NCBI GenBank assembly: GCA_049519175.1
Contig: JBEKQZ010000002.1
Span: 70,782 to 134,781, forward strand
Reading direction: 5' to 3'
Length of the DNA stretch: 64,000 nt
Source of the DNA: Candidatus Levyibacteriota bacterium
GTDB taxonomy: Bacteria; Patescibacteriota; Microgenomatia; Levybacterales; UBA12049
Shown: positions 24,601 to 64,000 of the stretch, piece after piece
Layout of the letters: each line of letters starts with the position of its first letter
How positions within the stretch are numbered: position 1 is the first letter of the stretch
Notes under the pieces: generated by a model
Database searches by the model: none
What the model was told of the DNA's origin: nothing
Seen by the model: only the letters and a program-made list of their open reading frames with translations
Translations under genes and position numbers: made by a program

Positions 24601-27600
24601 CACTGACTAACAATACTTTAATCCAACAGACCGGTGGCGGGACCGTTACCAATCTTTTGAATTTAACCCAAAGTGCCGGGGCAGTGACTAACGGCATCAC
24701 TTTTTCCGGAACGTTTACCAGCTTAATTAATGATTCGACTGTTTTTAACATTAGTAACAGCGGGGCAGTTAGTGGAGCATCACTGTTACTTAATGATACT
24801 GCCGGCACTAATACAACTGGCATTGGCACCGGCACCACCACCGGACAAGTCACTATCGGCGGCGGTTCGGGAACAGCGGCGGTTAACACCACTAGCTGGA
24901 AAGTGACCTCAGCTGGAGCTGTCTCCGGCTTAACCGACTTGACAGCTTCCGGAACTATCACTTTCTCTGGTTTCAGCAACAGTGATGGAGTAATTTACGC
25001 TAGCTCAGGAGTGCTTTACCAAACAGCGGCCGAGACATCATCGAGTAAATGTTTGGTCGGCGGCGCTACTGCTCCCGCCTGGGCTTCCTGCTCTACCGCA
25101 GCCAGCAATTACTGGCAAAGGACCGCCGGCAATCTTTCACCTGCCACTACCAATGACACTTTAGCTGCGACTAGCTCTGCCGCAACGGTAGCAACCTTTA
25201 CTACTAATAATCCAACCGGCACTTTAACCAACAATACTTTAATCCAACAGACCGGCGCCGGGACCGTCACCAATCTTTTGAATTTAACCCAAAGTAGCGG
25301 AACTGTTACTAACGCCCTGTCTATCAGCGGGACATTCGCTACCGATTTAATCAGCTCACCGACTCTGGTAGTTACTAATGCCGGCGCTGCTTCCGGCTTA
25401 ACCGGCTTATCTTCTTCCGGAACCATCATTTTCTCCGCTTTCAGCAACAGTGGTGGAGTAATTTACGCTAACGCAGGCGCTCTTGCCCAAACAGCTGCCG
25501 GTACCTCTAGTCAATGTTTGGTTGGCGGCGCTTCTGCTCCCACCTGGGCTTCGTGTTCAGCAGTTTCAAACAACTACTGGAGTTTAGTTAATGGTTATGG
25601 AGCTTCCAACGGTGGGTATATCACGCCCATCAACTCCACCGCTGACTTTTTACTCGGCGGGCAATCCACCGCGTCGGCTAAATTTGCAATCTTGAACCTG
25701 AATAGTGGAACACCGACAGCTACCATCGCCGGCAATTTAATAGTAATGCCCTACACCAGCGGCAGCAACGAATCTGGTGGCGGCATACAACTCGGTTCCA
25801 CCATCAATAGCAACAATGTTTTAAATACAGTAGCTCAAGGTGGTGGACCCAGCGGAAACCTGTATTGGGGAAATACACAATTGCTTGATTCAGCCAATCT
25901 CGGTAGTTTCGGAGCATCGTCGGTCAGTAATTCCGACGGAACTTTAACTATCTCCCCGACTACCGGAGCAGTTGTCGCTTCGCTTAACTTATCCCATGCC
26001 AATTCCTGGAGCGGCGCGCAGACTTTTACCGCCAGCACCAACTTCCCCAGCGGCATTTGGAACACCAGCGGAAACGTTGGCATCGGCATCATTTCTCCTT
26101 TGACGGCTCTTGATGTGCGGGGAAATTCCGGCACCACAGCGGTGGCTTCTGTATCGGGACAGACTTCCTTTGCTGCCTTGGTCGTCAATAACAACGGCGT
26201 TGGCGATTTATTCACCGCTTCTGCCAGCGGCTGGACCAGGTTTACGGTTTCCAACACCGGCGCCTTAACGTCAGCCGCTTACACTGGACAAAACGGAATA
26301 CTGTATGGCACCCAGACAACAGGCGTTATTACTCAAGCCACAACTGCCTCTACTGGCCTTTGCTTAATCTCCGGAGCTTCATCTCCAACCTGGTCTTCCT
26401 GCTCTACCGCGGCCAGCAACTATTGGCAATTGGCCGGAAATGCCATCTCGCCAAATACAACAAGTTATGATTTACTGATTGGTTCTGCATCTACCTCTTC
26501 GGCCGCTTTTGCTTTCACCGGACTCATGGGTAGTCAAACCCAAGCTTCTTTCAGTGGACAGTTTGTCGTGATGCCCAATAATGGTTACGGAGGGAATGCT
26601 TCCATTTCGGGAAATTTAACTATCGGTGCGCTGGGAACCAGCTCTTTACAAACTACCAGCGATCAGACTCTAACTATTGGCGGAAATACCACCGGCAACA
26701 TTACACTTTCCCCCTACAATGGCTCTAACGGAATCATCAATCTTAATGCTCCGACCATCAATACCAATGCTACCACCCTGGCTCTGGTTAACACCACTGC
26801 TCTCACTGTGAATTTTGCCGGTGCTGCCACTGCCTTGAACATGGGAGCTCCCACCGGCAGCGCATCCTTGTCGGCAACACTAGTTCTGGGAGGAACTACC
26901 AGCTCTACCATTGAACCGGGCAACGGCACTTTAAACTTTGGCTACAAATCCGGAGCTAACACTTGGGGAACAGCGATGACAATACGGGACAATACCGGTT
27001 ATGTGGGCATCGGCACAACCAGTCCCGGCGCAACGCTTGATGTCAGCGGTAATTCGGGAACAAAAGCGTTTGCCAATTTTTCGGGAAATACTTCTTTTGC
27101 CGGAGTAACAATTAACAACTCCGGCTCCGGTGACTTAATTGCTGCCTCTGCTTCGGGGACAACTGAATTCAAAGTCGATAATAGCGGCGATGTTTACGGC
27201 AGAGTTTGGAAAGATTTGGACAACACTGCTTATTATATGGATTTAAACACCACCGGCTATTCACTTTTAACCGCCGGTTCTGTCGGAATCGGAACAACAA
27301 GTCCAGGAGCACCGTTAGAAATATCCAACGGAACTCAGGCTAAAATTAATCTTACTAAGACTGGCACAACTGCAGGAACTGCGGCAATATATAACGATGG
27401 CAATCTACACATTACCGGTAGTAACGGAGGCAGTAATAATAGTGTATGGATTGATACAGACTCATCTAGCGGATCGTACTCTGTACATATAAATGCAAAC
27501 AGTACGGGAAGCAAAACGCTTTTACAGGAGGCTGGCGGCAATGTCGGAATTGGGACGACAACACCACAAGCAAGTTTAGATATTGCAAATGGTACAAGCC

Positions 27601-51503: not shown

Positions 51504-53240
51504 TTAGGGGTTGGTGATAAAAGTTTCGCAGAATTTTTGCGCCGTTTGAGTTTCAATGCTAAAATCGCTAATTTGCAAATCCGTTGGATAACCCTTTAGG
51601 CTGAAATTTTGACAAAGTTTGTCGTTAAAGATGTCGTAGCTTTGCCCACCATCCGAGAGCCTGGGAATAACCACCCGCTGGTAATTTTTCGGCAAAGCCC
51701 CGCAATTAAAATCATAAATAATTGTCCCCTTGAGTTTGGTCGGATCAATTGTATTATTACAGCCTAAAAACTGAACGTTTCCAAAGACAAACTCTTTATC
51801 TTTATAAATTGCTTTTACTTTTGCCAAAGTATTCTGGTTATAACTATTGGTATAAAAAATGTATTTTTTAAAAACATCGGGGACAGCCGGAGTGTAAATT
51901 GTAATTCGCTGTTTATCTTCGCTCGCCAATGCTACGTATTTGGACAAAAGTCTGGTTGGAAAATCAAACCCCCCTTGTAAAGAGAACTGGAAAAAATAAA
52001 TGTTCACAAAGTTAAGAAAAAGCAGTAGGTAAAGCAAAATTATCAATGCCGAAACTCCATAAAAAGCCCATTTGTTTTTAAAAAATCCAAGCGTTTCATC
52101 TATCCCAACGGCAATTAAAATTATGGCAAACGGGAAAAGTAATGTAATATGGGGAGCGAAATTTTCTAAACTGGCAGTATGCAGAACATGCGGCAAAAGA
52201 GCAATAAGACTAAGACTGACTAAGAGAAAAAATAATTTGGTTTTTCTTTTGTAAGCCGCAGCTAGACCAAAAATTAAAAAGACTGCGTCTAGAACATAGA
52301 ATAAACCCTGCCTAATAAGGGCAAAAAAATTATCCCCAGTTAAAAATAAATAGTTAAAAGAAGTTGTATCGAAAGTCTTTGTAAAAATTATCTTTAGGTA
52401 TTCGGTCATTTTATTCTCAAAGATATTTGCTAACGGAGTTTGCATGGTTATTTTCCTGACGGCATCCACCTGTGCCGACAAAATCGGCGCGTTAGGCGTA
52501 AAAATTTCACTTAGTCGTGAGCCTGAAATTTGTTTAAGTGCAAACACATACACCGCAACGATTAAGATACTGAAGCCAAAAACGATTGCGTATTGCTTTA
52601 GAAATTGCTTTTTGTTGGTAAAGTAACAATACAAAATAGCAATTGCAACTAATGGTAAAAAGATTAATTTTGTCGCAATGTAAGAATAAAAGGCTAAGTA
52701 TAAAATAGGGACTGACCACAAAATTTTCCAACCTTTGGCTTTTAGCAGAATATAAATTCCCATCAGGAAAAAAAGTGTCGCCGGCACTTGTTCGTAATCC
52801 GTCCGGCCGATGTAGATAAACCAGGGATTGATGGCGGCAATTAACCCCGCAATCACCCCTACTCTACTACCAAAAAATTCTTTGGCAATTAGATAAACGA
52901 ATAAAACAGTTACAACGCTCAAAAACGCAAATGTGACTCTGGCGTTGAAAAGCGAAAACTGCAAGAAACCAACAATTGGCGTTAGTAGAAAATATGGCAA
53001 TTCTGCCTGTGGCGTAGTGTAAGCCGGGTAGTGAAAAATAAAGGCGGACAGCGGATTCCAGGTACCGCTAATATCACTGCCTGTTAAAAAGATGGCCTTG
53101 GCGTTAAAAACATAGGTTAACTCGTCTCCGCCAATGCCGACCGGAATTTTATCAAGCCACAAAAAGCGCAAAACTGCAGCCAAAACAACTATTAAAAGAA
53201 CAAAAATGATTTCTTTATTTATTTTTCGTAAATATTCCAT
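51504..53240 (-). CDS. GT-C family membrane glycosyltransferase (GT39/ArnT/PMT-like)
   Basis: ~12 TM helices. First periplasmic loop contains GIGGDELTYVF (acidic DE motif). Large C-terminal soluble domain. Confidence 0.65.
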   Translation of the reverse strand: MEYLRKINKEIIFVLLIVVLAAVLRFLWLDKIPVGIGGDELTYVFNAKAIFLTGSDISGTWNPLSAFIFHYPAYTTPQAELPYFLLTPIVGFLQFSLFNARVTFAFLSVVTVLFVYLIAKEFFGSRVGVIAGLIAAINPWFIYIGRTDYEQVPATLFFLMGIYILLKAKGWKILWSVPILYLAFYSYIATKLIFLPLVAIAILYCYFTNKKQFLKQYAIVFGFSILIVAVYVFALKQISGSRLSEIFTPNAPILSAQVDAVRKITMQTPLANIFENKMTEYLKIIFTKTFDTTSFNYLFLTGDNFFALIRQGLFYVLDAVFLIFGLAAAYKRKTKLFFLLVSLSLIALLPHVLHTASLENFAPHITLLFPFAIILIAVGIDETLGFFKNKWAFYGVSALIILLYLLLFLNFVNIYFFQFSLQGGFDFPTRLLSKYVALASEDKQRITIYTPAVPDVFKKYIFYTNSYNQNTLAKVKAIYKDKEFVFGNVQFLGCNNTIDPTKLKGTIIYDFNCGALPKNYQRVVIPRLSDGGQSYDIFNDKLCQNFSLKGYPTDLQISDFSIETQTAQKFCETFITNP

Positions 53241-54826
53241 ACTGTTTCCACGCTATCATAAAATTTTATTTTTGCTGAAGGCGTTGCCGTATAATTGCAG
53301 TTTACTTGAGCAATATAAACTACTTTTGGCGGAATTTGTGAAAGACAGTCTTCGTAAAAAGCAAAATTAGCAAATTTGATTGGCGTTTTGTTGATGTTTG
53401 CCTGCACTAATTTGGGGTCTAGTTGGTTATAGAAAGCGTAGTGTAAAAAAGTATTGTCGGTTGCGCCCGAAACGATAACATTCTTGCCTTCTTTTTGATA
53501 TTTAGTTATTTTGAACACTAAGTCCTGGGTTGATCTGGAAAAATATTTGGCGTTGGTTTGCGACCAATCATAATAATACTGCGCCACATAACCGGTGACC
53601 GAATAAAGATAACAGCAAACGATGACGGCAAAAATTAGATATTTGAGCTCCTTTCTTTTACAGAATATGACAAGAAAGTAGATGCCGGCGCCAACAAAAA
53701 CGCTTAACCAAAGTGGCATTAAGCCGGACCGCGCCGTCCAGGTCGGAGAATTTACTCCAAGAGCTGATGGTAAAGGAGAAATTAGCAGTAAGCATAAGAT
53801 TAAACAAAATTCCCGGCGCTTTTTCCAGAATAAATAGAATAACCCAACGAAAAGTAGCGGCGCTTCAAACAGATACAGCTCGCCTCTTCCCCAGATTGAA
53901 TAGATACCGCTGGCTTCCTGATCTAAAAATAGATACTGCGGTGAAAATGCCGTTAGATAATTTGTCGCAAAAGTTTTTGTCCAATAAGTGAATTTGTTGT
54001 GATACAAAGTTTGAATAATTTTTGGCTCGTTGGTCGCCCGTCTTTCCAATTCCACGCTTAAAGCTGTTTGTTGCTTATCTAAAAAGAAAAATGGTGCCCC
54101 ACCGGCTGACCAATACTGAGATGCACCCTGCGTTGCGCTAAGATAAGCAAATGACCCAAGAGCAAGAAAAAGCGTAAGGATAATCAACAATAAATGCTTC
54201 TTACCTAACTCTTTAAACTTGTACCAGGCGAGGATAAAAAGGATTGGGATAACCAAAATCTTCGTACCGGCATAAGCATAAGAGGCGATAAAAAAGAAAA
54301 ACATCGAAAGTAGGAAAAATTTGGTCTTCCTGGGAAAATAGATAAAAAGAGCTATTGCCAAAATGTAGAAAAATATGGCTAAATTTATCTCGATTACGAA
54401 CCTGGAAAGTTGAAGATCCCAAACGGAAACAGCAAAGACAAAGCTGGAAAATAGCGCGATTAAATTATTGTTAACCAGCTTTTTAACGACAAAATACAAA
54501 AGTATTACCGAAGCAATGCTCGCCAAAGCAAAAGGCAATCTTGCGGTAAAAGGATTTAAGGGTAGAAACAAGAAAAAAAGAGCGGACAAATAAAAAGGCG
54601 CTTGGGCACCACTACTTCCCTGCTCTATATGAAAAACCGCGGGTAAAAAATTTCCAAACGCATCCCTGCCAGTGTGCGCAAGTGAATAAGCCGTGTAAGA
54701 AATTCTAATTTCATCATCCGACATGCTGATTGGCACAAGTCCTAAATGCCATAAACGCAAAACCGCAGCTAAAAGAACTATTAAAAACAAAGGGAGAAGC
54801 GCTAATAAATTCTTTTTGGATATCAT
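53219..54826 (-). CDS. GT-C family membrane glycosyltransferase (GT39/ArnT/PMT-like), tandem paralogue
   Basis: Same architecture as the upstream gene. First loop is ISMSDDEIRISYTAYSLAHTGRD. The two genes overlap by 22 nt. Confidence 0.65.
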   Translation of the reverse strand: MISKKNLLALLPLFLIVLLAAVLRLWHLGLVPISMSDDEIRISYTAYSLAHTGRDAFGNFLPAVFHIEQGSSGAQAPFYLSALFFLFLPLNPFTARLPFALASIASVILLYFVVKKLVNNNLIALFSSFVFAVSVWDLQLSRFVIEINLAIFFYILAIALFIYFPRKTKFFLLSMFFFFIASYAYAGTKILVIPILFILAWYKFKELGKKHLLLIILTLFLALGSFAYLSATQGASQYWSAGGAPFFFLDKQQTALSVELERRATNEPKIIQTLYHNKFTYWTKTFATNYLTAFSPQYLFLDQEASGIYSIWGRGELYLFEAPLLFVGLFYLFWKKRREFCLILCLLLISPLPSALGVNSPTWTARSGLMPLWLSVFVGAGIYFLVIFCKRKELKYLIFAVIVCCYLYSVTGYVAQYYYDWSQTNAKYFSRSTQDLVFKITKYQKEGKNVIVSGATDNTFLHYAFYNQLDPKLVQANINKTPIKFANFAFYEDCLSQIPPKVVYIAQVNCNYTATPSAKIKFYDSVETVWNIYEK

Positions 54827-54852
54827 TAGTCTAATAATACCATATCTGAGGC

Positions 54853-55245
54853 TTATTTTGGTTTTCTCGCCCGCTCAAGAATACCCCTGATAGCTTCATT
54901 TAGATCGGTTACTCCTCCATCATCCGGCCATGTAATCTTCATCTCAATTCCTTTTTGATTAATCCCAGCAAGTGTTAGGAAGAATCCTTTTATTTCGTCA
55001 GCTAAGATTTCCGGGTCAAGTTGATTTCCTGCCATTTTTTCTATCGCTTCTAAGTCACGGTCGACTTCTTGGGGATTTACCGCCGGATGATTAATTGAGG
55101 CTTCTAACTTTGCATGCAAATCATCAGGCGTTGTTAATGAATCTACTTCTTGAGCAAAACGAGCTCCCCGGGCGGCAAAACGTTCGCTAGCATCAATAAG
55201 CTTACCTCCTGAACCTGCTTTTTCGGCACTAGTTGAATCTGCCAT
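54853..55245 (-). CDS. hypothetical protein (GC-atypical island, gene 3)
   Basis: 130-aa acidic protein. Coding GC is visibly higher than neighbouring genes. Its own TTTACA ... GTTATCA promoter-like sequence lies upstream. Confidence 0.5.
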   Translation of the reverse strand: MADSTSAEKAGSGGKLIDASERFAARGARFAQEVDSLTTPDDLHAKLEASINHPAVNPQEVDRDLEAIEKMAGNQLDPEILADEIKGFFLTLAGINQKGIEMKITWPDDGGVTDLNEAIRGILERARKPK

Positions 55246-55304
55246 ATTATCCGTGATGATAACACTTCGGTATTTTTTTGTAAAGCAACCTTTTATAAAG
55301 ACAG

Positions 55305-55910
55305 TTATGCAGTAAACTGAGGCATGTTTGGGGGAGTTCGCAACCGCTCTCTTCTTCGGCTAGCTCTTTCAGCCAGCTGCTTTTTTCTGTTAACAACATG
55401 TGCGTAAAACTCCGTCATCCCCTCTCCCGCAAAGGGCGCTATCTCGACATCTTCCGAAAATAAATCCAAAACAGTATCGCCTGTTTTAAATTCATCCAGA
55501 ATTCCATCTCTTCTTAAAACCAGCTCGCTACCATTTTGCCTGCATTGCTCAATTAGATCTCTATAGCCATTCACTCTTCTTGCAAAATCATCAACCTCAA
55601 ATGTTTCAGCTTCAAAAAAGACTACTTCCCGACTAATACTTGCCTCTGTGTTAAAACTCATAGGTCTTCCAGATAGCGGCTTTACTGTCCCCACCATCCT
55701 TCGCATTGTTCTCGCCCCATAGGCTTCGGTATCGACAAATTGTGCAATAATATTAAGCGGCTGAACTGCTGAAGCAAAATTTCTCTGGTCTCCAGCACTA
55801 AGCGGATTTACATCTTTCCGCAAAAACACAAATTGAACATCAACGAAATGCGCTTCTATAACTTCTAAGTCTACTGGTATTTCTGACTTATTTCCTGCCA
55901 TGGGCCGCAT
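55305..55910 (-). CDS. hypothetical protein (GC-atypical island, gene 2)
   Basis: 201 aa with no recognisable motif. The conserved motif gggattttttgtgggcaaTTGACAaag lies ~25 bp upstream. Confidence 0.5.
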   Translation of the reverse strand: MRPMAGNKSEIPVDLEVIEAHFVDVQFVFLRKDVNPLSAGDQRNFASAVQPLNIIAQFVDTEAYGARTMRRMVGTVKPLSGRPMSFNTEASISREVVFFEAETFEVDDFARRVNGYRDLIEQCRQNGSELVLRRDGILDEFKTGDTVLDLFSEDVEIAPFAGEGMTEFYAHVVNRKKQLAERASRRRERLRTPPNMPQFTA

Positions 55911-55932
55911 GATAACATCGGCGACTATTCTT

Positions 55933-55965
55933 TGTCAATTGCCCACAAAAAATCCCTAAGGAAAT
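55933..55965 (-). promoter_or_regulatory. promoter with a conserved upstream motif (copy 2)
   Basis: On the minus strand: gggattttttgtgggcaaTTGACAaagaatagtcgccgatgttatcATG. The -35 box is TTGACA, and the start codon abuts the -10 region, which is leaderless-like. Confidence 0.5.
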
Positions 55966-55994
55966 CTTGATTTAAAGATTTAAGAAGCACTTCT

Positions 55995-56468
55995 TTAAAA
56001 AACTGTAATAACCGGCGGTAGCTGTCTTGCTTTTTCAAGAAATTCTCTCATCTCTCTTTTTCCACTAGAAAAAACTATCCTACTTAATATTTCTTTCCCT
56101 GATTGTTTCCGGGCACTTTTCGCTAAGCCTAACCTGCTACGCTCATAAACTTGCTGTGCTAATATCATGTTTAATTTCTCGCTCAAGCAGCCGGGCGCTA
56201 CTGTTTCGTTTCTTTCTTCCCCCGACCTTGGATCTACAAACAGCAAAATAGCCTCATCTTCTCTCAATTTTATTTCTCTTGTTGCCGCTGAAGGCTCTGG
56301 AGCAACGATTAGTTTTGTTGCGGCGATTTCTGCATCATTCATTCCCGCCAATAAACACAACTCTCTTAAACGACCCGGATTTTCTTCAACGCGGTAAGGG
56401 AGTTTCTGAAAGTCGCCAATACGTACAATAAAAGGGGTAACCCCTGGATTGCTTACTGTTTCTACCAT
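55995..56468 (-). CDS. hypothetical protein (GC-atypical island, gene 1)
   Basis: 157 aa. A perfect TTGACA-17 nt-TATAAT promoter ends 9 nt upstream of the ATG. Confidence 0.5.
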   Translation of the reverse strand: MVETVSNPGVTPFIVRIGDFQKLPYRVEENPGRLRELCLLAGMNDAEIAATKLIVAPEPSAATREIKLREDEAILLFVDPRSGEERNETVAPGCLSEKLNMILAQQVYERSRLGLAKSARKQSGKEILSRIVFSSGKREMREFLEKARQLPPVITVF

Positions 56469-56477
56469 AAGGCTTGG

Positions 56478-56528
56478 ATTATATTTGTATTATTGAACTT
56501 TGTCAATTTACCCACAAAAAATCCCCCA
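56478..56528 (-). promoter_or_regulatory. consensus sigma70-type promoter with a conserved upstream motif (copy 1)
   Basis: On the minus strand: gggattttttgtgggtaaaTTGACAaagttcaataatacaaaTATAATccaagccttATG. This is exactly the TTGACA-17-TATAAT consensus. Confidence 0.6.
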
Positions 56529-56565
56529 CATAAAATAATGTGAGGGATGAATTAAAAACAAAAAA

Positions 56566-56680
56566 TTTCTGGCAATGACCCATTGTCCCAACATAATGTT
56601 AGTATCGTAGGCGCTGAAACGTTTCACTTCTCTGTTCGGAATGGGAAGAGGTGGTGCCGCTTCGCACAAATTACCAGAAA
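56566..56680 (-). rRNA. rrf: 5S ribosomal RNA
   Basis: Reverse complement ...GGCACCACCTCTTCCCATTCCGAACAGAGAAGTGAAACGTTTCAGCGCCTACGATACTAACATTATGTTGGGACAATGGGTCATTGCCAG. It has the CCGAAC...GAAGTGAAAC loop C/helix III signature, and the terminal helix pairs. Confidence 0.7.
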
Positions 56681-56873
56681 ATTTCTATCTTCAATTTTTA
56701 AAGTTCTGTTGACTCTTTAAAAGGTGAAGAGAAGGATACTTAATCTACTCTAAAAACCATTAGTACGGGTAAGCTCAACACTTTACAGTGCTTCCACCGC
56801 CCGCCTATCAACCTCGTAGTCTACAAGGGGTTTTATCCAGCTTGCGCTGAAACGATATCTTATCTCGGAGGCC

Positions 56874-56904
<31 letters not shown>

Positions 56905-57045
56905 GGTTGGGAATCTAGCTACCCAGCGATGCTCTTATTCAGAAACAACTGGCACACCAGGGATTCCCTCATCCCAGTCCTCTCGTACTAGGGACGAATC
57001 TCCTCAAATATCAACGATTATACAGGATAGAGACCGAACTGTCTT

Positions 57046-57141
<96 letters not shown>

Positions 57142-57458
57142 CGACTTGTTACCAAGCGCTCTGACTATACCTTCATCCCCTATCATCTTTGTAAGGGGAG
57201 CTAGTCTTTTATAGAAGTTATAAATTTGTTTTTGAAACAAGCACTTCTATCTTCAGTCGCCTAAGGCGACATCCAGTCGATACGGGCCCACTCACAATAA
57301 ATTGTGAGGGGTTCCCTCGGTGTTGTCCAAAAAACTTTTGGAGTTCACCGATTTTGACTAGTCTATTTTATTATTCCAACGCATTCTCTACAGATGCGTT
57401 CTTTCGAATAACCAGGCTTAAGAATTTTTTCTTAGGCGCCCCGATGTAAATTACATAA
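57142..57458 (-). other. ORF-less group I-type intron in 23S domain V, at about E. coli position 2500
   Basis: The exon sequence GGCACCT|...|CGATGTCGGCTCATCACATCC is split by ~317 nt of non-rRNA sequence. Confidence 0.6.
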
Positions 57459-57500
57459 GGTGCCAAACCGCATCGTCGCTGTGGACGCTTGGATGCGATC

Positions 57501-57533
<33 letters not shown>

Positions 57534-58012
57534 AAGCTGTATGCCTACCACTAGGCAATACAGGATCACTAACATCGACTTTCGTCCCTGCTCGACTTGT
57601 AGGTCTCGCAGTCAAGCTGGCTTATGCGTTTGCACTATCACTTCGATTTCCATCCGAAGTTAGCCAACCTTTATACGACTCCGTTGCGTTGTAGGAGTCA
57701 ATCGCCCCAGTTAAACTGCCCGCCAGACAATGTCCCTCTGCCGAATTTTTGTGCGGCAAGGGGTAATGATTGCATATTCCAAAGAGAGGTATTTCATATT
57801 TCGCCAAAGCTCCCTCCTATTCTAAACAGTTAGAATATACTTTCAAATGCCAAGCTACAGTAAAGCTCCCGGGGTCTTTTTGTCCATGTATAATTAGGCC
57901 GCGTCTTCACGGCCATCTCAATTTCGCCGAGTAAATGTTCAAGACAGTTATTCACTCATTCTACCTTTCGTGCGGGTCGGAACTCGCCCGACAAGGAACT
58001 TCGCTCATTATG

Positions 58013-58980
58013 TTATTCCTAGATTTACGAATCTAGACTCTCCGATTCGCATCGGAGTTCGGACTATATCTTGTCGCCAAAGGCGACTTCTGCGTTTAGT
58101 CTCTGAGGATTTCCTACAAATTTGTAGGATCTTTCCTGCTGATTGGCTCCACCAAACAGATTATCAGTTCGAAATTAAATCGAACTACCGTTGGATACTG
58201 AGCTATTCCAGCATATAGCAGAATTTCTAAAACACTTTTCTAAGGCAACGATTGCCACCATAGAACAGTTCACATTGTTACTTGCTCTGATTGGCTACAG
58301 AGTCTCATGGTCGTCCATGAGGTCGGACTATATCATCATCGTCTCTTAAGACGAGTTTAGCGTATAGTCTCTGAGGATCCCTTCATCGGAAAATATATCA
58401 TTATATTCATATTTTCTTGTTCTTCCTTTACCTTCATTCAATTTTTCTCTTAAACGTAAAATTTTCCTTAAACCCTTAACATTTCTGTGTTCTCCACTTT
58501 CAACAAATTTTGCAATTTCACAAAAAATTTTAAAGTTACTAATTTTACTTTTAGAAAGTAATGGATATTTAGAAAAATATGGAATAACTCTTTCAACTAT
58601 TTCTTTAGAGTTTGTTGTGTCCAGAGAATGCAAGCCATCCCTTCTTGTCTTGATAATTCCACATCCTAATTCTTTTTTTAATATATAAAGAACTGATGGA
58701 TCTTTTTGTGAAACATTGAAACTTAAAACGATTTGCCAGTTAACTTTATAATCACTTTTTTTACGAAGTGATACATTAAAGCTACCTTCTCCTTCTACAA
58801 ACCCTGCTATAAAATAGCCTAAATTTTTCCGATCAAGGTCTTTCCTGCTGATTGTCTGCACTGGACGTTTTTTCACTAAGTTAAATATAACATAGTAACG
58901 CCAGATACTTCAACCGTCTGTTGTATAACAGTTACGGTACAGGTTTTCCAGCATATAGCTAAATTTTACAACTACAATTG
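58013..58980 (-). other. group I intron(s) in 23S domain IV, at about E. coli positions 1917-1931. Contains a homing-endonuclease ORF
   Basis: Exon ...GTAACTATAA is interrupted, and exon sequence resumes at ...GAGCGAAGTTCCTTGTCGGG. There are internally duplicated segments (ggactatatc...tctctgaggat twice; ccagcatatagc twice). These suggest two adjacent introns rather than one. Confidence 0.55.
58346..58876 (-). CDS. LAGLIDADG homing endonuclease (intron-encoded)
   Basis: LGYFIAGFVEGEGSFNVSL is a LAGLIDADG motif. 176 aa, which is the single-motif homodimer size class. It lies inside the 23S intron. Confidence 0.8.
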   Translation of the reverse strand: MKKRPVQTISRKDLDRKNLGYFIAGFVEGEGSFNVSLRKKSDYKVNWQIVLSFNVSQKDPSVLYILKKELGCGIIKTRRDGLHSLDTTNSKEIVERVIPYFSKYPLLSKSKISNFKIFCEIAKFVESGEHRNVKGLRKILRLREKLNEGKGRTRKYEYNDIFSDEGILRDYTLNSS

Positions 58981-61073
58981 CTTATAGTTACTGCTGCCGT
59001 TTACTGGAGCTTATATCACAAACTGACATCTTGCGACGTTTTATTCACGATATTTGACTTACCAGCACTGGGCAGGTGTCAGCCCCTATACTTTGCCTTT
59101 CGGCTTTGCAGGGACCTGTGTTTTAGATAAACAGTTGGTAAATAAACTTTTGCTGCGGCCGCGTTCTTACACGCGGCAAGACATATCCCAAAGGTTACGT
59201 CTAGCTTTTTTGCCGAGTTCCTTGAACATCTTTCTCTCGATCGCCTTAGTCTTCTCGACCAATCCACCTGTGTCGGTTTGCGGTACGGAAAAATATGAAT
59301 TTTGACCCGCCTTGCGGCGGATCCTAATGAAATTTTTCTGGGAAACTGAAAGCTACTAAATCGGAATTATTGCTAACCCCTTTCATTTGCAGCTTGATTA
59401 AACACGGTAATGGATTTGCCAATTACCACTATCTCACTGCTTAGACCAAACGTATTCGGCTTAGCTCTTCCACTTTCGTCCTTCCCTTAGATTATTCATA
59501 CCTTGTAGTCGAATTTCAACGACTTAACCATCGGGCTACGCCCCTTTAACGAGACACACCCTTAGGACCGACTAACCCTCCGCTGACTTACATTGCGGAG
59601 GAAACCTTGGATATTCGGCGTTTAGGATTCTCACCTAAATTTCGCTACTCATACCGGCATTCTCACTTCTATCCGCTCCACCAAACCTTACAATTCGGCT
59701 TCACTGCAAATAGAACGCTCCCCTACCAATCGCATTGCTGCGAGTCTCCAACTTCGGCAAATAGCTTAATCCTCGGTTTATTTTTCGCGCCAGATATCAT
59801 CCTCCAGTGAGCTGTTACGCTTTCTTTAAAAGATGGCTGCTTCTAAGCCAACTTCCTGGTTGTCTATGAAATCTGACTTCGTTCAAAACTTAGCTATTAT
59901 TTAGAGGCCTTAGATGGGAGTTTGGGTTGTTTCCCTCTCGACTCATCGGCTTAGCCCGACAAGACTGACTAGTAGCATAATTACATCTGCATTCGAAGTT
60001 TGATTAGTTCCTACATCTTGCGACGCAAGTAACCATTCAGTGCTCTACCTCAGTGTAAAATTAACTACCGCTATACCTAGATATATTTCGGGGAGAACCA
60101 GCTATCTCTGGGTTCGTTTGGCATATTGCCCCTAACCTCAGGTCATCCCAACCAATTGCTGCTGATACGGGTTCGGGCCTCCTGCTAACTTTCGTTAACA
60201 TTCACCCTGCCCAAGGTTAGCTCACCCAGTTTCGGGTCTAATGATTGCAACTAATTGCCCAGTTAGGGCACGCTTTCACTCTGCCTCCCCAAGACAAGCT
60301 TGGTTAAGCTAACGCTGCAATCAATAACTCACCGGTTCATTCTTCAATAGGCACGACGTTATACCCTTGCGGGCACTTCGTCTGCTTGTTAGCCGACAAT
60401 TTCAGTTCTATTTCATTCCCCTCCCGGGGTGCTTTTCACCTTTCCCTCGCGGTACTAGTTCACTATCGGTAGACTTTGATATTTAGTCTTGGAACGTGGC
60501 CGCCCCAGATTCCCACAGGGTTTCACCGTACCCCATGGTACTTAGGAACAAACTATCGTAAATTTTCATTTCGCATACGAGCCTTTCACTCTCTGTGGAA
60601 GACCATTCCGGGTCTTTCTGCTATAAAAATTTAATCGAATATCGTCTGCCCTGCAACACCACAATAAATTGTGGTTTAGACTGTTCCGCTTTCGCTCACC
60701 GCTACTGACGGAATCTCATATGATTTATTTTCCTGGCGTTACTTAGATGTTTCAGTTCACGCCGTTCCCAGCCAAAAGTTATATACATCCTTACGGACAT
60801 AAGTTCATTTCTGGCTACCGCGTAAAACGCGGTGGGTTCCCCCATTCGGACACCGCTGGATCAAAGGTTGATGGCACCTCCCCAACGAGTATCGCCGCCG
60901 TCTGCGTCCTTCCTCGGTCAAAGCCTCCTAGGCATCCATTATCGGCATTATAAGTAGATTAAAAATCTTCTCTTCACTTTTCAAAGAGCCAACTCATCTT
61001 TTGTCTAGCAAGTAGCGGCCACGCGTGTGGCAAGCGCTACTTGCTAAACAGTAACTAATAATAGTTACTAACC

Positions 61074-61149
61074 TGGTGGACCGTGGCGGACTCGAACCGC
61101 CTACCTCTTCATTGCAAATGAAGTGTTCTACCAGGTGAACTAACGGCCC
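61074..61149 (-). tRNA. tRNA-Ala (anticodon UGC), CCA encoded
   Basis: Reverse complement GGGCCGTTAGTTCACCTGGTAGAACACTTCATTTGCAATGAAGAGGTAGGCGGTTCGAGTCCGCCACGGTCCACCA. It is a clean cloverleaf with G3:U70. It sits ~110 nt upstream of the 23S 5' end, in the usual spacer position for this tRNA. Confidence 0.85.
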
Positions 61150-61380
61150 ATCTCCGTTTGAGTCCAAAATAAAAAAGAACTTATGAACTATCTAGAGGAA
61201 TTTACTTAAAGAAGGCACAGAAACCGCTTAGGCGGTTGAAAAGTTTAATTTTCTTAGTGTCATCATAAAATAAATTCCTCCCGATCGAAATACATCGGGA
61301 TTCATTCACGTATATGTGATATTAACATACAGCTAATAGTATGTCAACAGTATGTCGATAGGCATCGAGCGAGAAGAAAT

Positions 61381-61698
61381 CTATTTTAATGGAGTCAATA
61401 GAATATTTATATATGATACGAATGTTGCAATGTTATTTATAACAATGGGAAGTACCGCTATTACTGTAAAAAGCGTTAAAAGTAAAAGTAAATAATTAGT
61501 TTTACTCGCTCTTTTTTCTAAAACGACTTGATGTATAGCTAATATTTTAATTAAATGTTTTATAATATCTAAATTTTGTTCTTCCGCAGCGGGGTTTTTA
61601 CGCAAGGCATTTGCTTCTCGTATAGAATCTTTGACAAACTCCAACATTGGTTTTTTAAGTTGTTGTTTGGCCTCATTCTCTATTTCAACTTCAGTCAT
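61381..61698 (-). CDS. small hypothetical protein with a C-terminal TM segment
   Basis: 105-aa ORF in an AT-rich region. Confidence 0.35.
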   Translation of the reverse strand: MTEVEIENEAKQQLKKPMLEFVKDSIREANALRKNPAAEEQNLDIIKHLIKILAIHQVVLEKRASKTNYLLLLLTLFTVIAVLPIVINNIATFVSYINILLTPLK

Positions 61699-61746
61699 AT
61701 TTTAATTCCCAACCTTGCGATATAAGTCTTGTTTTGCACCATAAAG

Positions 61747-62118
61747 CTAATTTGATTTAAGTAAGCAGCTTAAGCCAAGTAGGCAATAAACAAAACCCAC
61801 GTTCTTATGCAGTTCGCTTCGGTATTTAAAATTGAAGACAATAGTCTTTTCAAGGCTTGTCTTCATAGCTGATATATGAGGGCAGTCTTCTAAGCACTGC
61901 TGTTTGTATACTTTGTCTAACCCCTTCTCAACTAATTCTTTTGGAAAATTAGTACATCCACTATTGCAGAGCTCATCCATCGTTTTAAACGTATCAGCGA
62001 GTTTGTTATTTACTAGTTTATAATCGCTAGCGTTTTGCCAGGCAAATGGAAACGTAGCAACTATAATAACTAAGATTGTTACGATGATTGCAAAGATTAT
62101 GTATCTATTATTTTTCAC
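61747..62118 (-). CDS. small Cys-rich membrane-anchored hypothetical protein
   Basis: N-terminal TM helix and 6 Cys in 123 aa. Confidence 0.4.
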   Translation of the reverse strand: MKNNRYIIFAIIVTILVIIVATFPFAWQNASDYKLVNNKLADTFKTMDELCNSGCTNFPKELVEKGLDKVYKQQCLEDCPHISAMKTSLEKTIVFNFKYRSELHKNVGFVYCLLGLSCLLKSN

Positions 62119-62234
62119 TACTAACTTTTTATACGCTTATCCGAAGCTGAAGTCAATTAGATAATTTTGTCTTTCGGGGCTGGATTATTTCCCGCCGTTT
62201 TCCTTTTTGACAAAATTGTGTATAATGTCAACAT

Positions 62235-62528
62235 ATGAAAAAAGCACAATTCCAATTTGCATTACCCGTTTCCATACTAAGAGAAGGCGATAGTTTTATT
62301 GCTTATACTCCCGCTTTGGATTTATCAACTGTGGGAGATACCTTGGAGCAAGCTCAAAAAAGATTTGAAGAAGCCGTACAACTTTTTTTTGAAGAAATTA
62401 CAGAAGAAGGTACGGTAAATGAGGCATTAGCAGAGCTTGGTTGGCAAAAAGCCGATAATCAACTTACGCCACCCGTTGTAATTTCTCATCAAACAGAAAC
62501 TTTTTCAGTTCCTCGATTTGCTCTATAA
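62235..62528 (+). CDS. hicB: HicB-family antitoxin (UPF0150-like)
   Basis: FQFALPVSILREGDSFIAYTPALDLSTVGDTLEQAQKRFEEAVQLFFEE fits the HicB/UPF0150 fold pattern. It is immediately followed by a HicA-like gene. Confidence 0.6.
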   Translation: MKKAQFQFALPVSILREGDSFIAYTPALDLSTVGDTLEQAQKRFEEAVQLFFEEITEEGTVNEALAELGWQKADNQLTPPVVISHQTETFSVPRFAL

Positions 62529-62531
62529 AAT

Positions 62532-62762
62532 ATGCCTAATTTAACCCCTCTTAATTGGAAAGAATTTGAAAAATTTCTTTTATATGTAGGCTGTGAATTT
62601 AAGCGGCAAAGAGGAGATCATAAGGTTTATTGGAGGTCGGGTTTAAAAAGGCCCATTATTCTCCCAACTTACAAAAATCTTCCAATATTTATCATAAGAA
62701 ATAATCTAAGAACCTTAGGAATAACTGTTGAAGAATATTTAGAAATATTGAAGAAGATATGA
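62532..62762 (+). CDS. hicA: HicA-family mRNA-interferase toxin (YcfA-like)
   Basis: LTPLNWKEFEKFLLYVGCEFKRQRGDHKVYWRS...RPIILPTYKNLP...LRTLGITVEEYLEIL shows the HicA pattern (the conserved Gly-x-His, '...P.H...', '...lgi'). Confidence 0.6.
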   Translation: MPNLTPLNWKEFEKFLLYVGCEFKRQRGDHKVYWRSGLKRPIILPTYKNLPIFIIRNNLRTLGITVEEYLEILKKI

Positions 62763-62767
62763 AACGG

Positions 62768-62789
62768 GGCTGGATTATTTCCCGCCTTC
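62768..62789. repeat. conserved ~22-bp inter-cassette element (copy R2). Other copies are R1 at 62176-62197, R3 at 63137-63159 and R4 at 63421-63441
   Basis: cggggctggattatttcccgcc (R1, R2), ccggggctagattattccccgcc (R3), ggctaaattattccccggcc (R4). On the minus strand each copy overlaps or directly follows a gene's stop codon. Confidence 0.6.
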
Positions 62790-63086
62790 TCTTGTCATGG
62801 AGCTAATCTCACCGGATGCAGTATCCTCTGATGCCAGATCAGCAAGGGCTCTTGTTGCCCAAAGACGACCCAATCGATTCCCAGTTTGCATATAATCGGC
62901 TATTGCATCTATCAATTTTTCTCGTAATTCAATGCCCTTTTCGACAGTGAATCCTTCACGTCGAGCCAAGGAATAATCTGTAAAAGGTCTTCCTATTTCA
63001 GGGCCATATCTTGCTATATAAGGCTTTCTTGTCTCGGCTCTTCTATGTGCTTCTTGTCTTCGTGAGCTATCTCCTTCAGGTGGCAT
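62775..63086 (-). CDS. hypothetical protein
   Basis: 103 aa, Arg-rich. Its last codons (REGGK*) are encoded by the R2 repeat element. Confidence 0.4.
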   Translation of the reverse strand: MPPEGDSSRRQEAHRRAETRKPYIARYGPEIGRPFTDYSLARREGFTVEKGIELREKLIDAIADYMQTGNRLGRLWATRALADLASEDTASGEISSMTREGGK

Positions 63087-63160
63087 GACGCGATTATATT
63101 GCTGAAATAATTACTTGTCAACAAAAGAAATCTCCGGGGCTAGATTATTCCCCGCCCTTT

Positions 63161-63397
63161 TTATTTTAATAACCCTGATAGCTTAAGCGCGTTGAATGAA
63201 AGATATGCAAGGACGACAGCCGCAACCAAACTTAACCACGCCGGCACATCCCAACCTGCATAAACCATATTCCAGCCTAAAACAACTCTTAAAAGGTGCA
63301 AAAGTCCAACAATTGCAAATACTACTCCCGCTACTTTGTAGAACATTTTTGAGGATAACATTTTTCTCACCCCCTTCTTTCTTAAGATTGGCACCAA
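63161..63397 (-). CDS. small membrane protein
   Basis: 78 aa with two predicted TM helices. Confidence 0.35.
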   Translation of the reverse strand: MVPILRKKGVRKMLSSKMFYKVAGVVFAIVGLLHLLRVVLGWNMVYAGWDVPAWLSLVAAVVLAYLSFNALKLSGLLK

Positions 63398-63441
63398 CTG
63401 ATTAAAATGTCAAATCGTGGCTAAATTATTCCCCGGCCAAT

Positions 63442-64000
63442 TCAATTTCCAGCCGGTAAACCGACCAAGGGTACAAACCGAACTCCAAACATTTGTTTTA
63501 TAATTAATTCCTTTTCCTGCTTAACTCCGAGCACCAAATTTTGATCCCCCTCTACTTTTCCAATGGGAATTACTATTCTGCCGCCAACTTTAATTTGCTC
63601 GATTAAAGCAGGGGGTATTTCTTTTTCTGCTGCTGCGGTAACGATAATCGTATCAAAAAGCGCTCTTTCGGGAATACCCAAAATACCATTACCGGTATAA
63701 ACCGTAACATTTTTATAGCCATGTGTTGCAAGTCTTTCCTGTGCTGTTTGTGCTAAATCAGGATTGTTTTCAATAGTATCTACTTCTTTTGCACAAAAAG
63801 ATAAAAGCGCAGCCGTGTATCCCGAAGCGGTTCCAACCTCTAAAACCCGCTCATTGCCTGTTAATCCAAGAGCTTCTATCATTTCTGCAATGACTGAAGG
63901 TTGACTGATTGAAGAATCTTTTCCTAAGGGAATTACTTCGTCGGAATATGCTAAGTGTTGAAAGGCTGGAGGCGCAAAATTAGCTCTATCAACAACTTCG
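63442..64000 (-). CDS. pcm: protein-L-isoaspartate O-methyltransferase (N-terminus lies beyond the window edge)
   Basis: VLEVGTASGYTAALLSFCAKEV is SAM-binding motif I of PIMT. Translating past the track's Met gives ...VDRANFAPPAFQHLAYSDEVIPLGKDSSISQPSVIAEMIEAL, the canonical PIMT N-terminal region. The ORF is open to position 64000. Confidence 0.85.
   Translation of the reverse strand, partial: EVVDRANFAPPAFQHLAYSDEVIPLGKDSSISQPSVIAEMIEALGLTGNERVLEVGTASGYTAALLSFCAKEVDTIENNPDLAQTAQERLATHGYKNVTVYTGNGILGIPERALFDTIIVTAAAEKEIPPALIEQIKVGGRIVIPIGKVEGDQNLVLGVKQEKELIIKQMFGVRFVPLVGLPAGN

What the first reader, a model, noticed from the sequence alone, without database searches (positions are those of the whole stretch)
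54853..56528. GC-atypical three-gene island beside the 5S rRNA; each gene has its own copy of a near-consensus promoter motif
Three minus-strand ORFs (157, 201 and 130 aa) match nothing I recognise. They have visibly higher GC and different codon usage from the flanking GT39 genes, which suggests acquisition from elsewhere. The first is preceded by a textbook TTGACA-17-TATAAT promoter ending 9 nt from the ATG. The second carries the same 27-nt upstream motif (gggattttttgtggg-N-aaTTGACAaag). The third has a TTTACA...GTTATCA variant. The -10 elements abut the start codons, so the mRNAs are leaderless or nearly so. Repeated strong promoters on three tiny genes of foreign composition, wedged between the envelope-glycosylation genes and the rRNA operon, look like a compact accessory module. 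The proteins have no motifs I can read.
Basis: partly seen in the sequence, partly recalled or inferred. Interest (0 to 1): 0.65.

Follow-up and report, generated by a model that had tools for sequence, protein, structure and literature searches.

The report
Orphan small genes beside rRNA operon
Three small genes of unknown function, found almost only in this lineage, sit in a fast-changing gap between the ribosomal RNA operon and two glycosyltransferase genes of an uncultured Levyibacteriota bacterium; the "shared motif" is the rRNA terminator tail fused to an ordinary promoter, and the base composition is native, so the finding is real but fairly ordinary.

Summary
The three minus-strand ORFs, their promoters and the repeated ~27-nt string are all present.

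- **Composition is native.** Island GC is 0.415 against 0.417 for the window. Gene GC z-scores run from -0.05 to +0.27, and codon usage lies within the range of 33 other genes. Only the two flanking membrane-protein genes are unusually AT-rich.
- **The motif is not a regulon signal.** It is the T-tract and 3' flank of the 5S rRNA terminator joined to a -35 box. It occurs only at this locus in the window. It is conserved at the same locus in relatives, and a second copy follows the first inserted gene.
- **Promoters abutting the ATG are common here.** About 9 of 33 other genes in the window have the same layout, against 0.6% of internal ATGs.
- **The 5S-to-GT39a gap is a variable slot.** In relatives it is empty or holds other small ORFans, a GT2 gene, or four amino-acid-metabolism genes.
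- **The three genes are not a co-inherited module.** ORF130 has one homologue and one remnant at this locus. ORF157 has one distant homologue in a different context. ORF198 has none among 1.8 billion cluster representatives.

No family, phage, defence or fold match was found. I score interest as low to moderate.

The parts
56567..56678 (-). 5S rRNA, the last gene of the 23S-5S operon. It marks the upstream edge of the variable slot.
   Evidence: Rfam RF00001, 67 bits. Orthologous 5S genes flank the same slot in L017, L018, L019, L020, L026, L028 and L029.
56515..56548 (-). Intrinsic terminator of the rRNA operon: an 11-bp hairpin (56548-56521) followed by a T-tract.
   Evidence: Terminator scan. 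RNA fold -17 kcal/mol, z = -4.15. In relatives the stem sequence differs but pairing is kept, and the 3' arm always ends in GGGGA followed by TTTTTTGTG.
56498..56525 (-). Direct-repeat copy 1: GGGATTTTTTGTGGG-TA-AATTGACAAAG. This is the terminator 3' arm and T-tract plus the -35 box of the ORF157 promoter.
   Evidence: The core is conserved in 10 junctions from at least 6 genomes.
56478..56506 (-). ORF157 promoter, TTGACA-17-TATAAT, with 9 nt between the -10 and the ATG.
   Evidence: The -10 and the 9-nt leader (AAATATAATCnAAGCCTTATG) are shared with the promoter of the 36%-identical homologue in L025.
55995..56468 (-). ORF157: 157 aa, pI 8.6, soluble. It has one distant homologue, P0005.
   Evidence: pN/pS is 0.61 against P0005; synonymous sites are saturated. 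AF2 model pLDDT 71, with no fold match.
55930..55956 (-). Direct-repeat copy 2: GGGATTTTTTGTGGG-C-AATTGACAAAG. It is a relic terminator tail without a stable hairpin, plus the -35 box of the ORF198 promoter.
   Evidence: The fold is no better than shuffled sequence, z = -0.18.
55909..55938 (-). ORF198 promoter, TTGACA-18-TATCAT, 7 nt before the second ATG (55901). The first ATG (55910) overlaps the -10 element.
   Evidence: Its layout resembles the 5S-proximal promoter of the unrelated orf101 family in L017 and L029.
55305..55901 (-). ORF198 (201 aa if read from 55910): an acidic protein with a basic C-terminal tail. It has no homologue.
   Evidence: In one search the only non-self hit is a repeat protein matching 32 residues at E = 3.5e-5, which I judge spurious. 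The GC1 > GC2 > GC3 pattern is typical of coding sequence. The AF2 model is unusable, pLDDT 36.
55256..55284 (-). ORF130 promoter, TTTACA-17-TATCAT, with 10 nt between the -10 and the ATG.
   Evidence: It is conserved with the gene start (ATGGCAG) in L018, L026 and L017.
54853..55245 (-). ORF130: 130 aa, pI 4.7. This is the slot's most persistent gene.
   Evidence: The homologue P0004 (45-47% identity over the full length, E = 2.7e-16) lies between the 5S gene and a GT39 gene in L026. A 75-aa remnant is present in L018. dN/dS is about 0.4.
54834..54842 (-). Extended -10 element (TGgTATTAT), 7 nt before the GT39a ATG. GT39a therefore also has a -10 close to its start codon.
   Evidence: Conserved in the window, L026 and L018. 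L020 has TATATT 7 nt before its ATG.
53219..54826 (-). GT39a, a PMT-like glycosyltransferase. It marks the downstream edge of the slot.
   Evidence: Pfam PMT and PMT_2, both weak. Orthologues are 58-79% identical in relatives.

Best explanation
The stretch is the variable spacer between the rRNA-operon terminator and the GT39 glycosyltransferase genes of a Candidatus Levyibacteriota (CPR) genome.

It holds three separate single-gene transcription units. Each has a near-consensus sigma-70-type promoter whose -10 box ends 7-10 nt before the ATG, and none has a Shine-Dalgarno sequence. Transcription should therefore start at or within a few bases of the start codon. On that reading the mRNAs are translated as leaderless messages, and each gene needs its own promoter (inferred).

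The '27-nt motif' is a composite. It is the 3' arm and T-tract of the 5S terminator, a conserved GTGGG, and then the -35 box of the first downstream promoter. The core was duplicated when a gene was added next to the terminator, so the inserted gene is bracketed by two copies. The inner copy has since lost its hairpin.

The proteins are small, soluble, fast-evolving and confined to this lineage. They are gained, replaced and eroded independently, so they are not a functional trio. I infer that they are dispensable, niche-specific cytoplasmic factors. Their biochemical role cannot be read from sequence or fold.
For: - **Organism and clonality.** The NCBI name is Candidatus Levyibacteriota. Fourteen contigs from several metagenomes are 99.8-100% identical over the island.
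- **Native composition.**
- **Promoters and spacing.**
- **Same layout elsewhere.** Nine of 33 other genes have a promoter scoring at least 9/12 with the -10 ending 4-14 nt from a start codon, against 0.6% of 173 internal ATGs. GT39a has an extended -10 element 7 nt from its ATG.
- **Terminator.** The hairpin at 56521-56548 folds at z = -4.15. No hairpin separates the later genes.
- **Core conservation.** GGG(G)ATTTTTTGTGGG..(T)TGACA is conserved in 10 junctions. The empty site in L020 has one copy. In L029, L017 and the window, two copies bracket the first gene.
- **Slot contents.** L020 is empty. L018 has a 75-aa remnant. L026 has the ORF130 homologue only. L029 has an unrelated 103-aa gene, even though its GT39a is the closest to the window's at 79% identity. 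L017 and L028 hold two small ORFs plus a GT2 gene. L019 holds four metabolic genes.
- **Coding status.** ORF130 against P0004 gives dN/dS of about 0.4. ORF157 against P0005 gives E = 6.9e-10, with both termini conserved.
- **Promoter travels with the gene.**
- **No known family.** There are no Pfam, PHROG, PADLOC, NCBIfam, PDB or phage matches.
Against: - No transcription start sites are available, so 'leaderless' rests on spacing alone.
- Without terminators between the genes, read-through from the ORF157 promoter into ORF198, ORF130 and GT39a is likely. The units may therefore not be strictly monocistronic.
- ORF198 has no homologue and an unusable structure model. Its coding status rests on ORF length, codon-position GC and promoter placement.
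- The duplication-on-insertion scenario is inferred from only a handful of genomes.
- The similarity of the repeated cores could partly reflect shared functional constraint (terminator plus promoter) rather than duplication.
- Only 64 kb of this genome was searched for the motif.
Confidence: 0.72

Rival explanations
1. The region is a horizontally acquired, compact three-gene accessory module, such as a defence, toxin-antitoxin or host-interaction system. It has foreign composition, and a shared regulatory motif coordinates its expression.
For: - The genes are lineage-specific and the slot is variable.
- The three promoters are among the four strongest consensus matches in the 14 kb scanned.
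- A HicAB pair lies about 6 kb away, so the neighbourhood tolerates accessory genes.
Against: - Composition and codon usage are native.
- There are no PADLOC, PHROG, Pfam, phage or viral-contig matches.
- The families never co-occur elsewhere, and they have different phyletic patterns.
- Each gene has its own promoter rather than sharing an operon, which is unlike toxin-antitoxin systems and most defence systems.
- The motif is a terminator tail plus a -35 box found only at this locus.
- No integrase or transposase family appears among the genes called within 6 kb on either side.
Confidence: 0.1
2. The slot is a cassette-capture site. Self-promoted single-gene units are inserted and excised at a specific ~25-nt core (GGGATTTTTTGTGGG-N-AATTGACA) at the rRNA terminator. 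The mechanism would be site-specific or short-homology recombination, loosely like an integron platform but with no adjacent integrase.
For: - The empty site has one core (L020). Occupied sites have two cores bracketing the first gene in three independent genomes: the window, L029 and L017.
- Positions with no obvious promoter or terminator role, such as the GTGGG and the bases before the -35, are identical between copies.
- Unrelated genes occupy the same position behind similar promoters.
- ORF157 and its promoter recur in a different genomic context.
Against: - No recombinase is nearby.
- The core occurs only at this locus in 64 kb. It is absent from the L025 copy of the ORF157 family.
- Fourteen contigs of this population show no presence/absence polymorphism.
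- Matches to the 16-mer in viral contigs look incidental. I estimate the chance expectation at a few dozen (my own calculation, not a tool result), and none of the 36 hits extends to the -35 box.
- The later genes, ORF198 and ORF130, are not bracketed by cores.
- Ordinary illegitimate recombination or local duplication explains the same pattern.
Confidence: 0.13
3. Some or all of the ORFs, especially ORF198, are not functional genes. On this view the region is mainly a promoter-rich 5' region feeding the GT39 operon, and its open frames are proto-genes or decaying genes.
For: - Promoters are better conserved than the ORFs behind them.
- L018 carries an eroded 75-aa version of ORF130.
- ORF198 is a singleton with a pLDDT-36 model.
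- No terminators separate the ORFs from GT39a.
- dN/dS of about 0.4 is much more relaxed than the 0.08 of GT39a.
Against: - ORF130 and ORF157 have full-length homologues with conserved termini and dN/dS below 1.
- By my own estimate, a 198-codon open frame arises by chance with probability of about 5e-6 per start at this composition.
- Codon-position GC is gene-like for all three ORFs.
- GT39a has its own conserved extended -10 element.
Confidence: 0.05

Closest known systems
Leaderless transcription units. These are sigma-70-type promoters with the -10 about 7 nt before the start codon, as catalogued in Actinobacteria, Deinococcus and other genomes. This description comes from my own knowledge of the literature, not from a tool result.
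   Same: The hexamers and the 17-18 nt spacer match. The -10 ends 7-10 nt before the ATG. There is no Shine-Dalgarno sequence. The same layout recurs at many other genes in the window.
   Different: No TSS data exist for this organism. Leaders of 0-4 nt are inferred from spacing only. Here three such units lie head to tail with no terminators between them.
Rho-independent terminator overlapping the next promoter in a compact intergenic region.
   Same: The 5S-proximal copy has an 11-bp GC-containing hairpin plus a T-tract. The stem co-varies between relatives. The T-tract lies 10-15 nt upstream of the -35, where an A/T-rich UP-like element would sit; that last point is my inference.
   Different: The second copy keeps the tail but has lost the hairpin. 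It is a relic rather than a working terminator.
Variable genomic islets made of taxonomically restricted (ORFan) genes at a conserved flank.
   Same: The flanks are conserved (5S and GT39a). The content differs between relatives, from 38 nt to 4.2 kb. The genes have 0-2 relatives among 1.8 billion cluster representatives.
   Different: Composition is native. No tRNA gene, integrase or IS element is present. Each inserted gene brings or retains its own promoter.
Integron gene-cassette arrays.
   Same: Short single-gene units are stacked at one site, and a repeated boundary sequence brackets the first unit.
   Different: There is no IntI gene. The repeat is not an attC-type imperfect palindrome. 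Each unit has its own promoter, whereas integron cassettes are usually promoterless. Only the first unit is bracketed.

Membership tests
Sigma-70-type leaderless transcription unit | -35 and -10 hexamers close to TTGACA and TATAAT, with a 16-18 nt spacer | tested here: met
   The three promoters match 12/12, 11/12 and 10/12 positions.
Sigma-70-type leaderless transcription unit | -10 element placed so that the TSS falls at or within a few nt of the start codon, with no Shine-Dalgarno sequence | tested here: met
   The gaps between the -10 and the ATG are 9, 7 and 10 nt. None of the three gaps contains GGAG, GAGG or AGGA.
Sigma-70-type leaderless transcription unit | Experimentally mapped 5' end at the A of the AUG | not testable with these tools
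   No transcriptome data are available.
Intrinsic (Rho-independent) terminator | Stable GC-containing hairpin immediately followed by a T-tract | tested here: met
   Copy 1 (56515-56548): 11 pairs, -17 kcal/mol, z = -4.15. Copy 2 (55942-55956) does not meet the feature, z = -0.18.
Horizontally acquired genomic island | Base composition or codon usage deviating from the host genome | tested here: not met
   GC z = -0.05 to +0.27. Codon-score z = -0.5 to -1.1 against 33 genes of the window.
Horizontally acquired genomic island | Mobility genes (integrase, transposase) or a tRNA or direct-repeat boundary | tested here: inconclusive
   No recombinase family appears among the called genes within 6 kb on either side. 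A 27-nt direct repeat does bracket ORF157 only.
Horizontally acquired genomic island | Presence/absence variation between related genomes at conserved flanks | tested here: met
   The slot holds 38 nt to 4.2 kb of differing content in L017-L020, L026 and L029.
Regulon-defining operator or shared regulatory motif | The motif recurs upstream of several unlinked genes in the genome | tested here: not met
   There are only two copies in 64 kb, both at this locus. The rest of the genome was not available.
Integron cassette array | IntI integrase, an attI site and attC palindromes bounding promoterless cassettes | tested here: not met
   No integrase is nearby. The repeat is a direct terminator/promoter core, not an attC hairpin. 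Every unit has its own promoter.
Known anti-phage defence or toxin-antitoxin system | Match to a defence or TA protein family, with operon organisation | tested here: not met
   There are no PADLOC or Pfam matches at E <= 1 other than one chance-level Pfam hit. The genes have separate promoters and independent phyletic distributions.

The most novel reading that the evidence does not exclude
In this Levyibacteriota clade, the rRNA-operon terminator acts as a dedicated landing pad. Self-promoted, leaderless single-gene units are inserted and exchanged there by recombination at a ~25-nt terminator/promoter core. This would be an integrase-free, cassette-like route by which tiny CPR genomes sample new small proteins. 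Promoters would be retained while the coding sequences behind them are swapped or born de novo.
Probability: 0.13. Interest if true: 0.55.

Novelty: new member of a known kind. Interest (0 to 1): 0.25.

Why it matters
The practical lesson is about annotation. In this CPR genome a consensus promoter touching the ATG, and a 'shared upstream motif', are normal gene-start and terminator features rather than marks of a special module. A GC contrast with membrane-protein neighbours is an amino-acid effect, not evidence of foreign DNA.

The modest biological interest lies in the slot itself. Its flanks are conserved, yet unrelated orphan genes come and go behind conserved promoters. That makes it a small natural system for studying gene gain, loss and possibly gene birth in reduced genomes. 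The three proteins add two tiny families and one singleton to the uncharacterised CPR proteome.

Tried and rejected
- **Profile libraries.** Pfam, PHROGs, PADLOC and NCBIfam scans of the three proteins gave nothing beyond chance.
- **Word-indexed homology search** of 5.8 billion clusters returned only the query genome's own proteins.
- **Full HMMER scan** of 1.84 billion representatives used a concatenated query. It gave one relative for ORF130, one for ORF157, and a repeat-protein hit for ORF198 that I judge spurious.
- **PDB sequence search** found nothing significant.
- **Phage and viral searches.** A phage tblastn with ORF157, and viral-contig scans for all three families, found nothing.
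- **Metagenome scan** with the ORF157 alignment found nothing.
- **Paralogy and hidden homology.** All-against-all BLAST and hhalign between the three proteins and the other slot ORFs (orf101, orf95, orf75) were not significant.
- **SNP-based selection test.** This was impossible because the 14 contigs are 99.8-100% identical.
- **Terminator tail as a genome-wide signature.** TTTTTTGTGG has only 4 matches in the window, 2 of them here.
- **The 16-mer in viral contigs.** There were 36 hits, which look incidental by my own rough estimate, and none extends to the -35 box.
- **Literature.** Searches for leaderless expression in CPR or Patescibacteria gave nothing directly relevant.
Full report
**What is there**

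On the minus strand the order is as follows:
- 23S rRNA (56740-60960, carrying a group I intron and a LAGLIDADG ORF)
- 5S rRNA (56567-56678)
- ORF157 (55995-56468)
- ORF201 (55305-55910)
- ORF130 (54853-55245)
- two PMT-like GT39 genes (53219-54826 and 51504-53240)
- S1 and then RadA

Public records name the organism Candidatus Levyibacteriota, a CPR lineage. They start the middle gene at its second ATG, which gives 198 aa. Fourteen contigs from several metagenomes are 99.8-100% identical across the island, so a single clonal population is being sampled.

**Checking the observation**

The promoters are as described.
- ORF157 has TTGACA-17-TATAAT ending 9 nt before its ATG. This is one of two perfect matches in 64 kb, where 0.07 are expected by chance.
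- ORF198 has TTGACA-18-TATCAT ending 7 nt before the second ATG. The first ATG lies inside the -10 element.
- ORF130 has TTTACA-17-TATCAT ending 10 nt before its ATG.

The repeated string is real, with a 1-nt indel between the copies. It reads GGGATTTTTTGTGGG, then TA or C, then AATTGACAAAG, at 56498-56525 and 55930-55956.

The composition claim fails.
- Island GC is 0.415 against 0.417 for the window.
- The three genes have GC z-scores of -0.05 to +0.27 against 33 other genes.
- Their GC3 (0.28-0.34) is lower than that of the GT39 genes (0.38-0.40).
- A leave-one-out codon-usage score puts them at z = -0.5 to -1.1, inside the range of the other genes.

The visible contrast with the neighbours comes from first-codon-position GC, which reflects amino-acid content. 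These are charged soluble proteins sitting next to AT-rich membrane proteins.

**What the motif is**

The first 15 nt of the 5S-proximal copy are the 3' arm and T-tract of an 11-bp hairpin at 56521-56548. That hairpin is the intrinsic terminator of the rRNA operon (-17 kcal/mol, z = -4.15). The last 11 nt of the copy contain the -35 box.

The same composite follows the 5S gene in related genomes. The hairpin stems differ in sequence but keep their pairing, and the tail GGGGATTTTTTGTG is invariant (alignment).

The second copy in the window, upstream of ORF198, keeps the tail but has no stable hairpin (z = -0.18). There is no terminator-like structure between ORF198, ORF130 and GT39a either. 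Read-through from the ORF157 promoter is therefore likely.

The string occurs nowhere else in the 64 kb. The 16-mer has 36 matches in viral contigs, which look incidental, and none of them extends to the -35 box. It is therefore not a regulon motif.

**The promoter architecture is the genome's norm**

I scanned every gene start in the window. Nine of 33 non-island genes have a promoter matching at least 9 of 12 positions with the -10 ending 4-14 nt before a start codon. Only 0.6% of 173 internal ATGs do.

GT39a has a conserved extended -10 element (TGnTATTAT) 7 nt before its ATG, and the same holds in relatives. A few genes have classical GGAGG sites instead.

My inference is this. Without Shine-Dalgarno sites, the ORFs depend on a 5'-terminal AUG, so each one needs its own promoter. 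That explains 'a promoter per gene' without any need for co-regulation.

**The slot is variable**

I recovered orthologous loci using GT39a as the query, the terminator/promoter string as a DNA pattern, and the contig of the ORF130 homologue. In a subclade of Levyibacteriota the 5S gene is followed directly by GT39a. The gap between them contains:

| Locus | Gap content |
|---|---|
| L020 | 38 nt, empty |
| L018 | 75-aa ORF |
| L026 | ORF130 homologue only |
| L029 | one unrelated 103-aa gene |
| L017, L028 | that same gene family, plus a 95-aa ORF and a GT2 gene |
| L019 | four amino-acid-metabolism genes |

L029 has the GT39a closest to the window's (79% identity) yet shares none of the three genes. 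In L016, GT39a lies inside a glycosylation cluster that is not next to rRNA genes.

The empty site in L020 has one copy of the core. In the window, L029 and L017, two copies bracket the 5S-proximal gene. This fits duplication of the terminator/promoter core on insertion.

**The three genes are independent**

A full HMMER scan of 1.84 billion cluster representatives found very few relatives.
- ORF130 has one relative, P0004: 122 aa, 45-47% identity over the full length, E = 2.7e-16. It lies between the 5S gene and a GT39 gene in L026.
- L018's 75-aa ORF shares the ORF130 promoter, first codons and stop region, but has lost the middle of the gene.
- ORF157 has one relative, P0005: 212 aa, 36% identity. 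Both termini are conserved, and it carries a hydrophobic insertion of about 55 residues. It lies in a different context with unrelated neighbours. Its -10 and 9-nt leader are nearly identical to the window's.
- ORF198 has no credible relative.

dN/dS is about 0.4 for ORF130 against P0004. For GT39a (window against L029) it is 0.08. The small genes are therefore coding but only loosely constrained.

The three proteins are not paralogues of each other or of the other slot ORFs. Promoters at equivalent positions are more alike than the ORFs they drive. That suggests either gene replacement behind retained promoters or very fast divergence of the coding sequence.

**Function**

Nothing matched in Pfam, PHROGs, PADLOC, NCBIfam, PDB sequences, phage genomes or viral contigs. 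None of the three proteins is hydrophobic overall (GRAVY -0.23 to -0.47), and I saw no signal peptide or membrane segment on reading the sequences. Their pI values are 8.6, 5.2 and 4.7.

The AF2 model of ORF157 (pLDDT 71) shows a small alpha/beta domain followed by a helical hairpin. It has no significant fold match in PDB or BFVD. The ORF198 model is unusable.

I therefore commit only to this: these are dispensable, lineage-restricted cytoplasmic proteins, expressed individually from strong promoters. They are not a defence, toxin-antitoxin or phage module.

**Verdict**

The sequence features are real, but the 'foreign, co-regulated module' reading is mostly wrong. This is a native-composition, variable spacer holding orphan genes, with the terminator and promoter features normal for this genome.

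The one less ordinary reading still open is that the terminator/promoter core serves as a recurrent insertion point for self-promoted single-gene units. I give that about 13%.

Noticed in passing
window 56740-60960 (-), especially 58040-58273 and 58346-58876: The 23S rRNA gene spans 4.2 kb against a 2.9-kb model. It carries a group I intron and a LAGLIDADG homing-endonuclease ORF (176 aa in the ORF list; a 171-aa product in the public gene calls).
   Followed up: no
window 61074-64000 (-): tRNA-Ala(TGC) lies directly upstream of the 23S gene. No 16S rRNA follows in the remaining 2.9 kb, which holds small protein ORFs instead. The 16S gene therefore appears unlinked from the 23S-5S pair.
   Followed up: partly
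window 62235-62528 and 62532-62762 (+): A HicB-like antitoxin and HicA toxin pair lies upstream of the rRNA operon (Pfam).
   Followed up: partly
window 62775-63121 (-): A 103-aa ORF with no Pfam match carries the only other perfect TTGACA-17-TATAAT in the window, ending 6 nt before its ATG. It is another orphan with little or no leader, next to the rRNA operon.
   Followed up: partly
L026 603-2339: The GT39 gene after the ORF130 homologue is a chimera. Its first ~15 codons match GT39a and the rest is 76% identical to GT39b. GT39a was therefore deleted by recombination between the two paralogues.
   Followed up: yes
L019 464-4457: In this relative the same slot holds ORFs that I read, without a family search, as an aspartate-racemase-like gene, a DAHP synthase, an aminotransferase and a prephenate-dehydrogenase-like gene. 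That is unusual cargo for a reduced CPR genome. The record title says 'Gammaproteobacteria' although the synteny is Levyibacteriota-like.
   Followed up: no
window 55024-55056 and 55854-55901 (-): ORF130 and ORF198 share two short strings: ATGGCAGGAAAT (12/12) and GACTTAGAAG..ATAGAA (16/18). They occur in swapped order, so this may be chance or a trace of local sequence reuse.
   Followed up: partly
L025 3103-3157 vs window 56466-56510: ORF157 and its 36%-identical homologue share an almost identical -10 and 9-nt leader (AAATATAATCnAAGCCTTATG), although their genomic contexts differ. The promoter is better conserved than the protein.
   Followed up: partly
window 21615-30188 (+): A single 2857-aa ORF, the largest in the window. 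I did not examine it.
   Followed up: no
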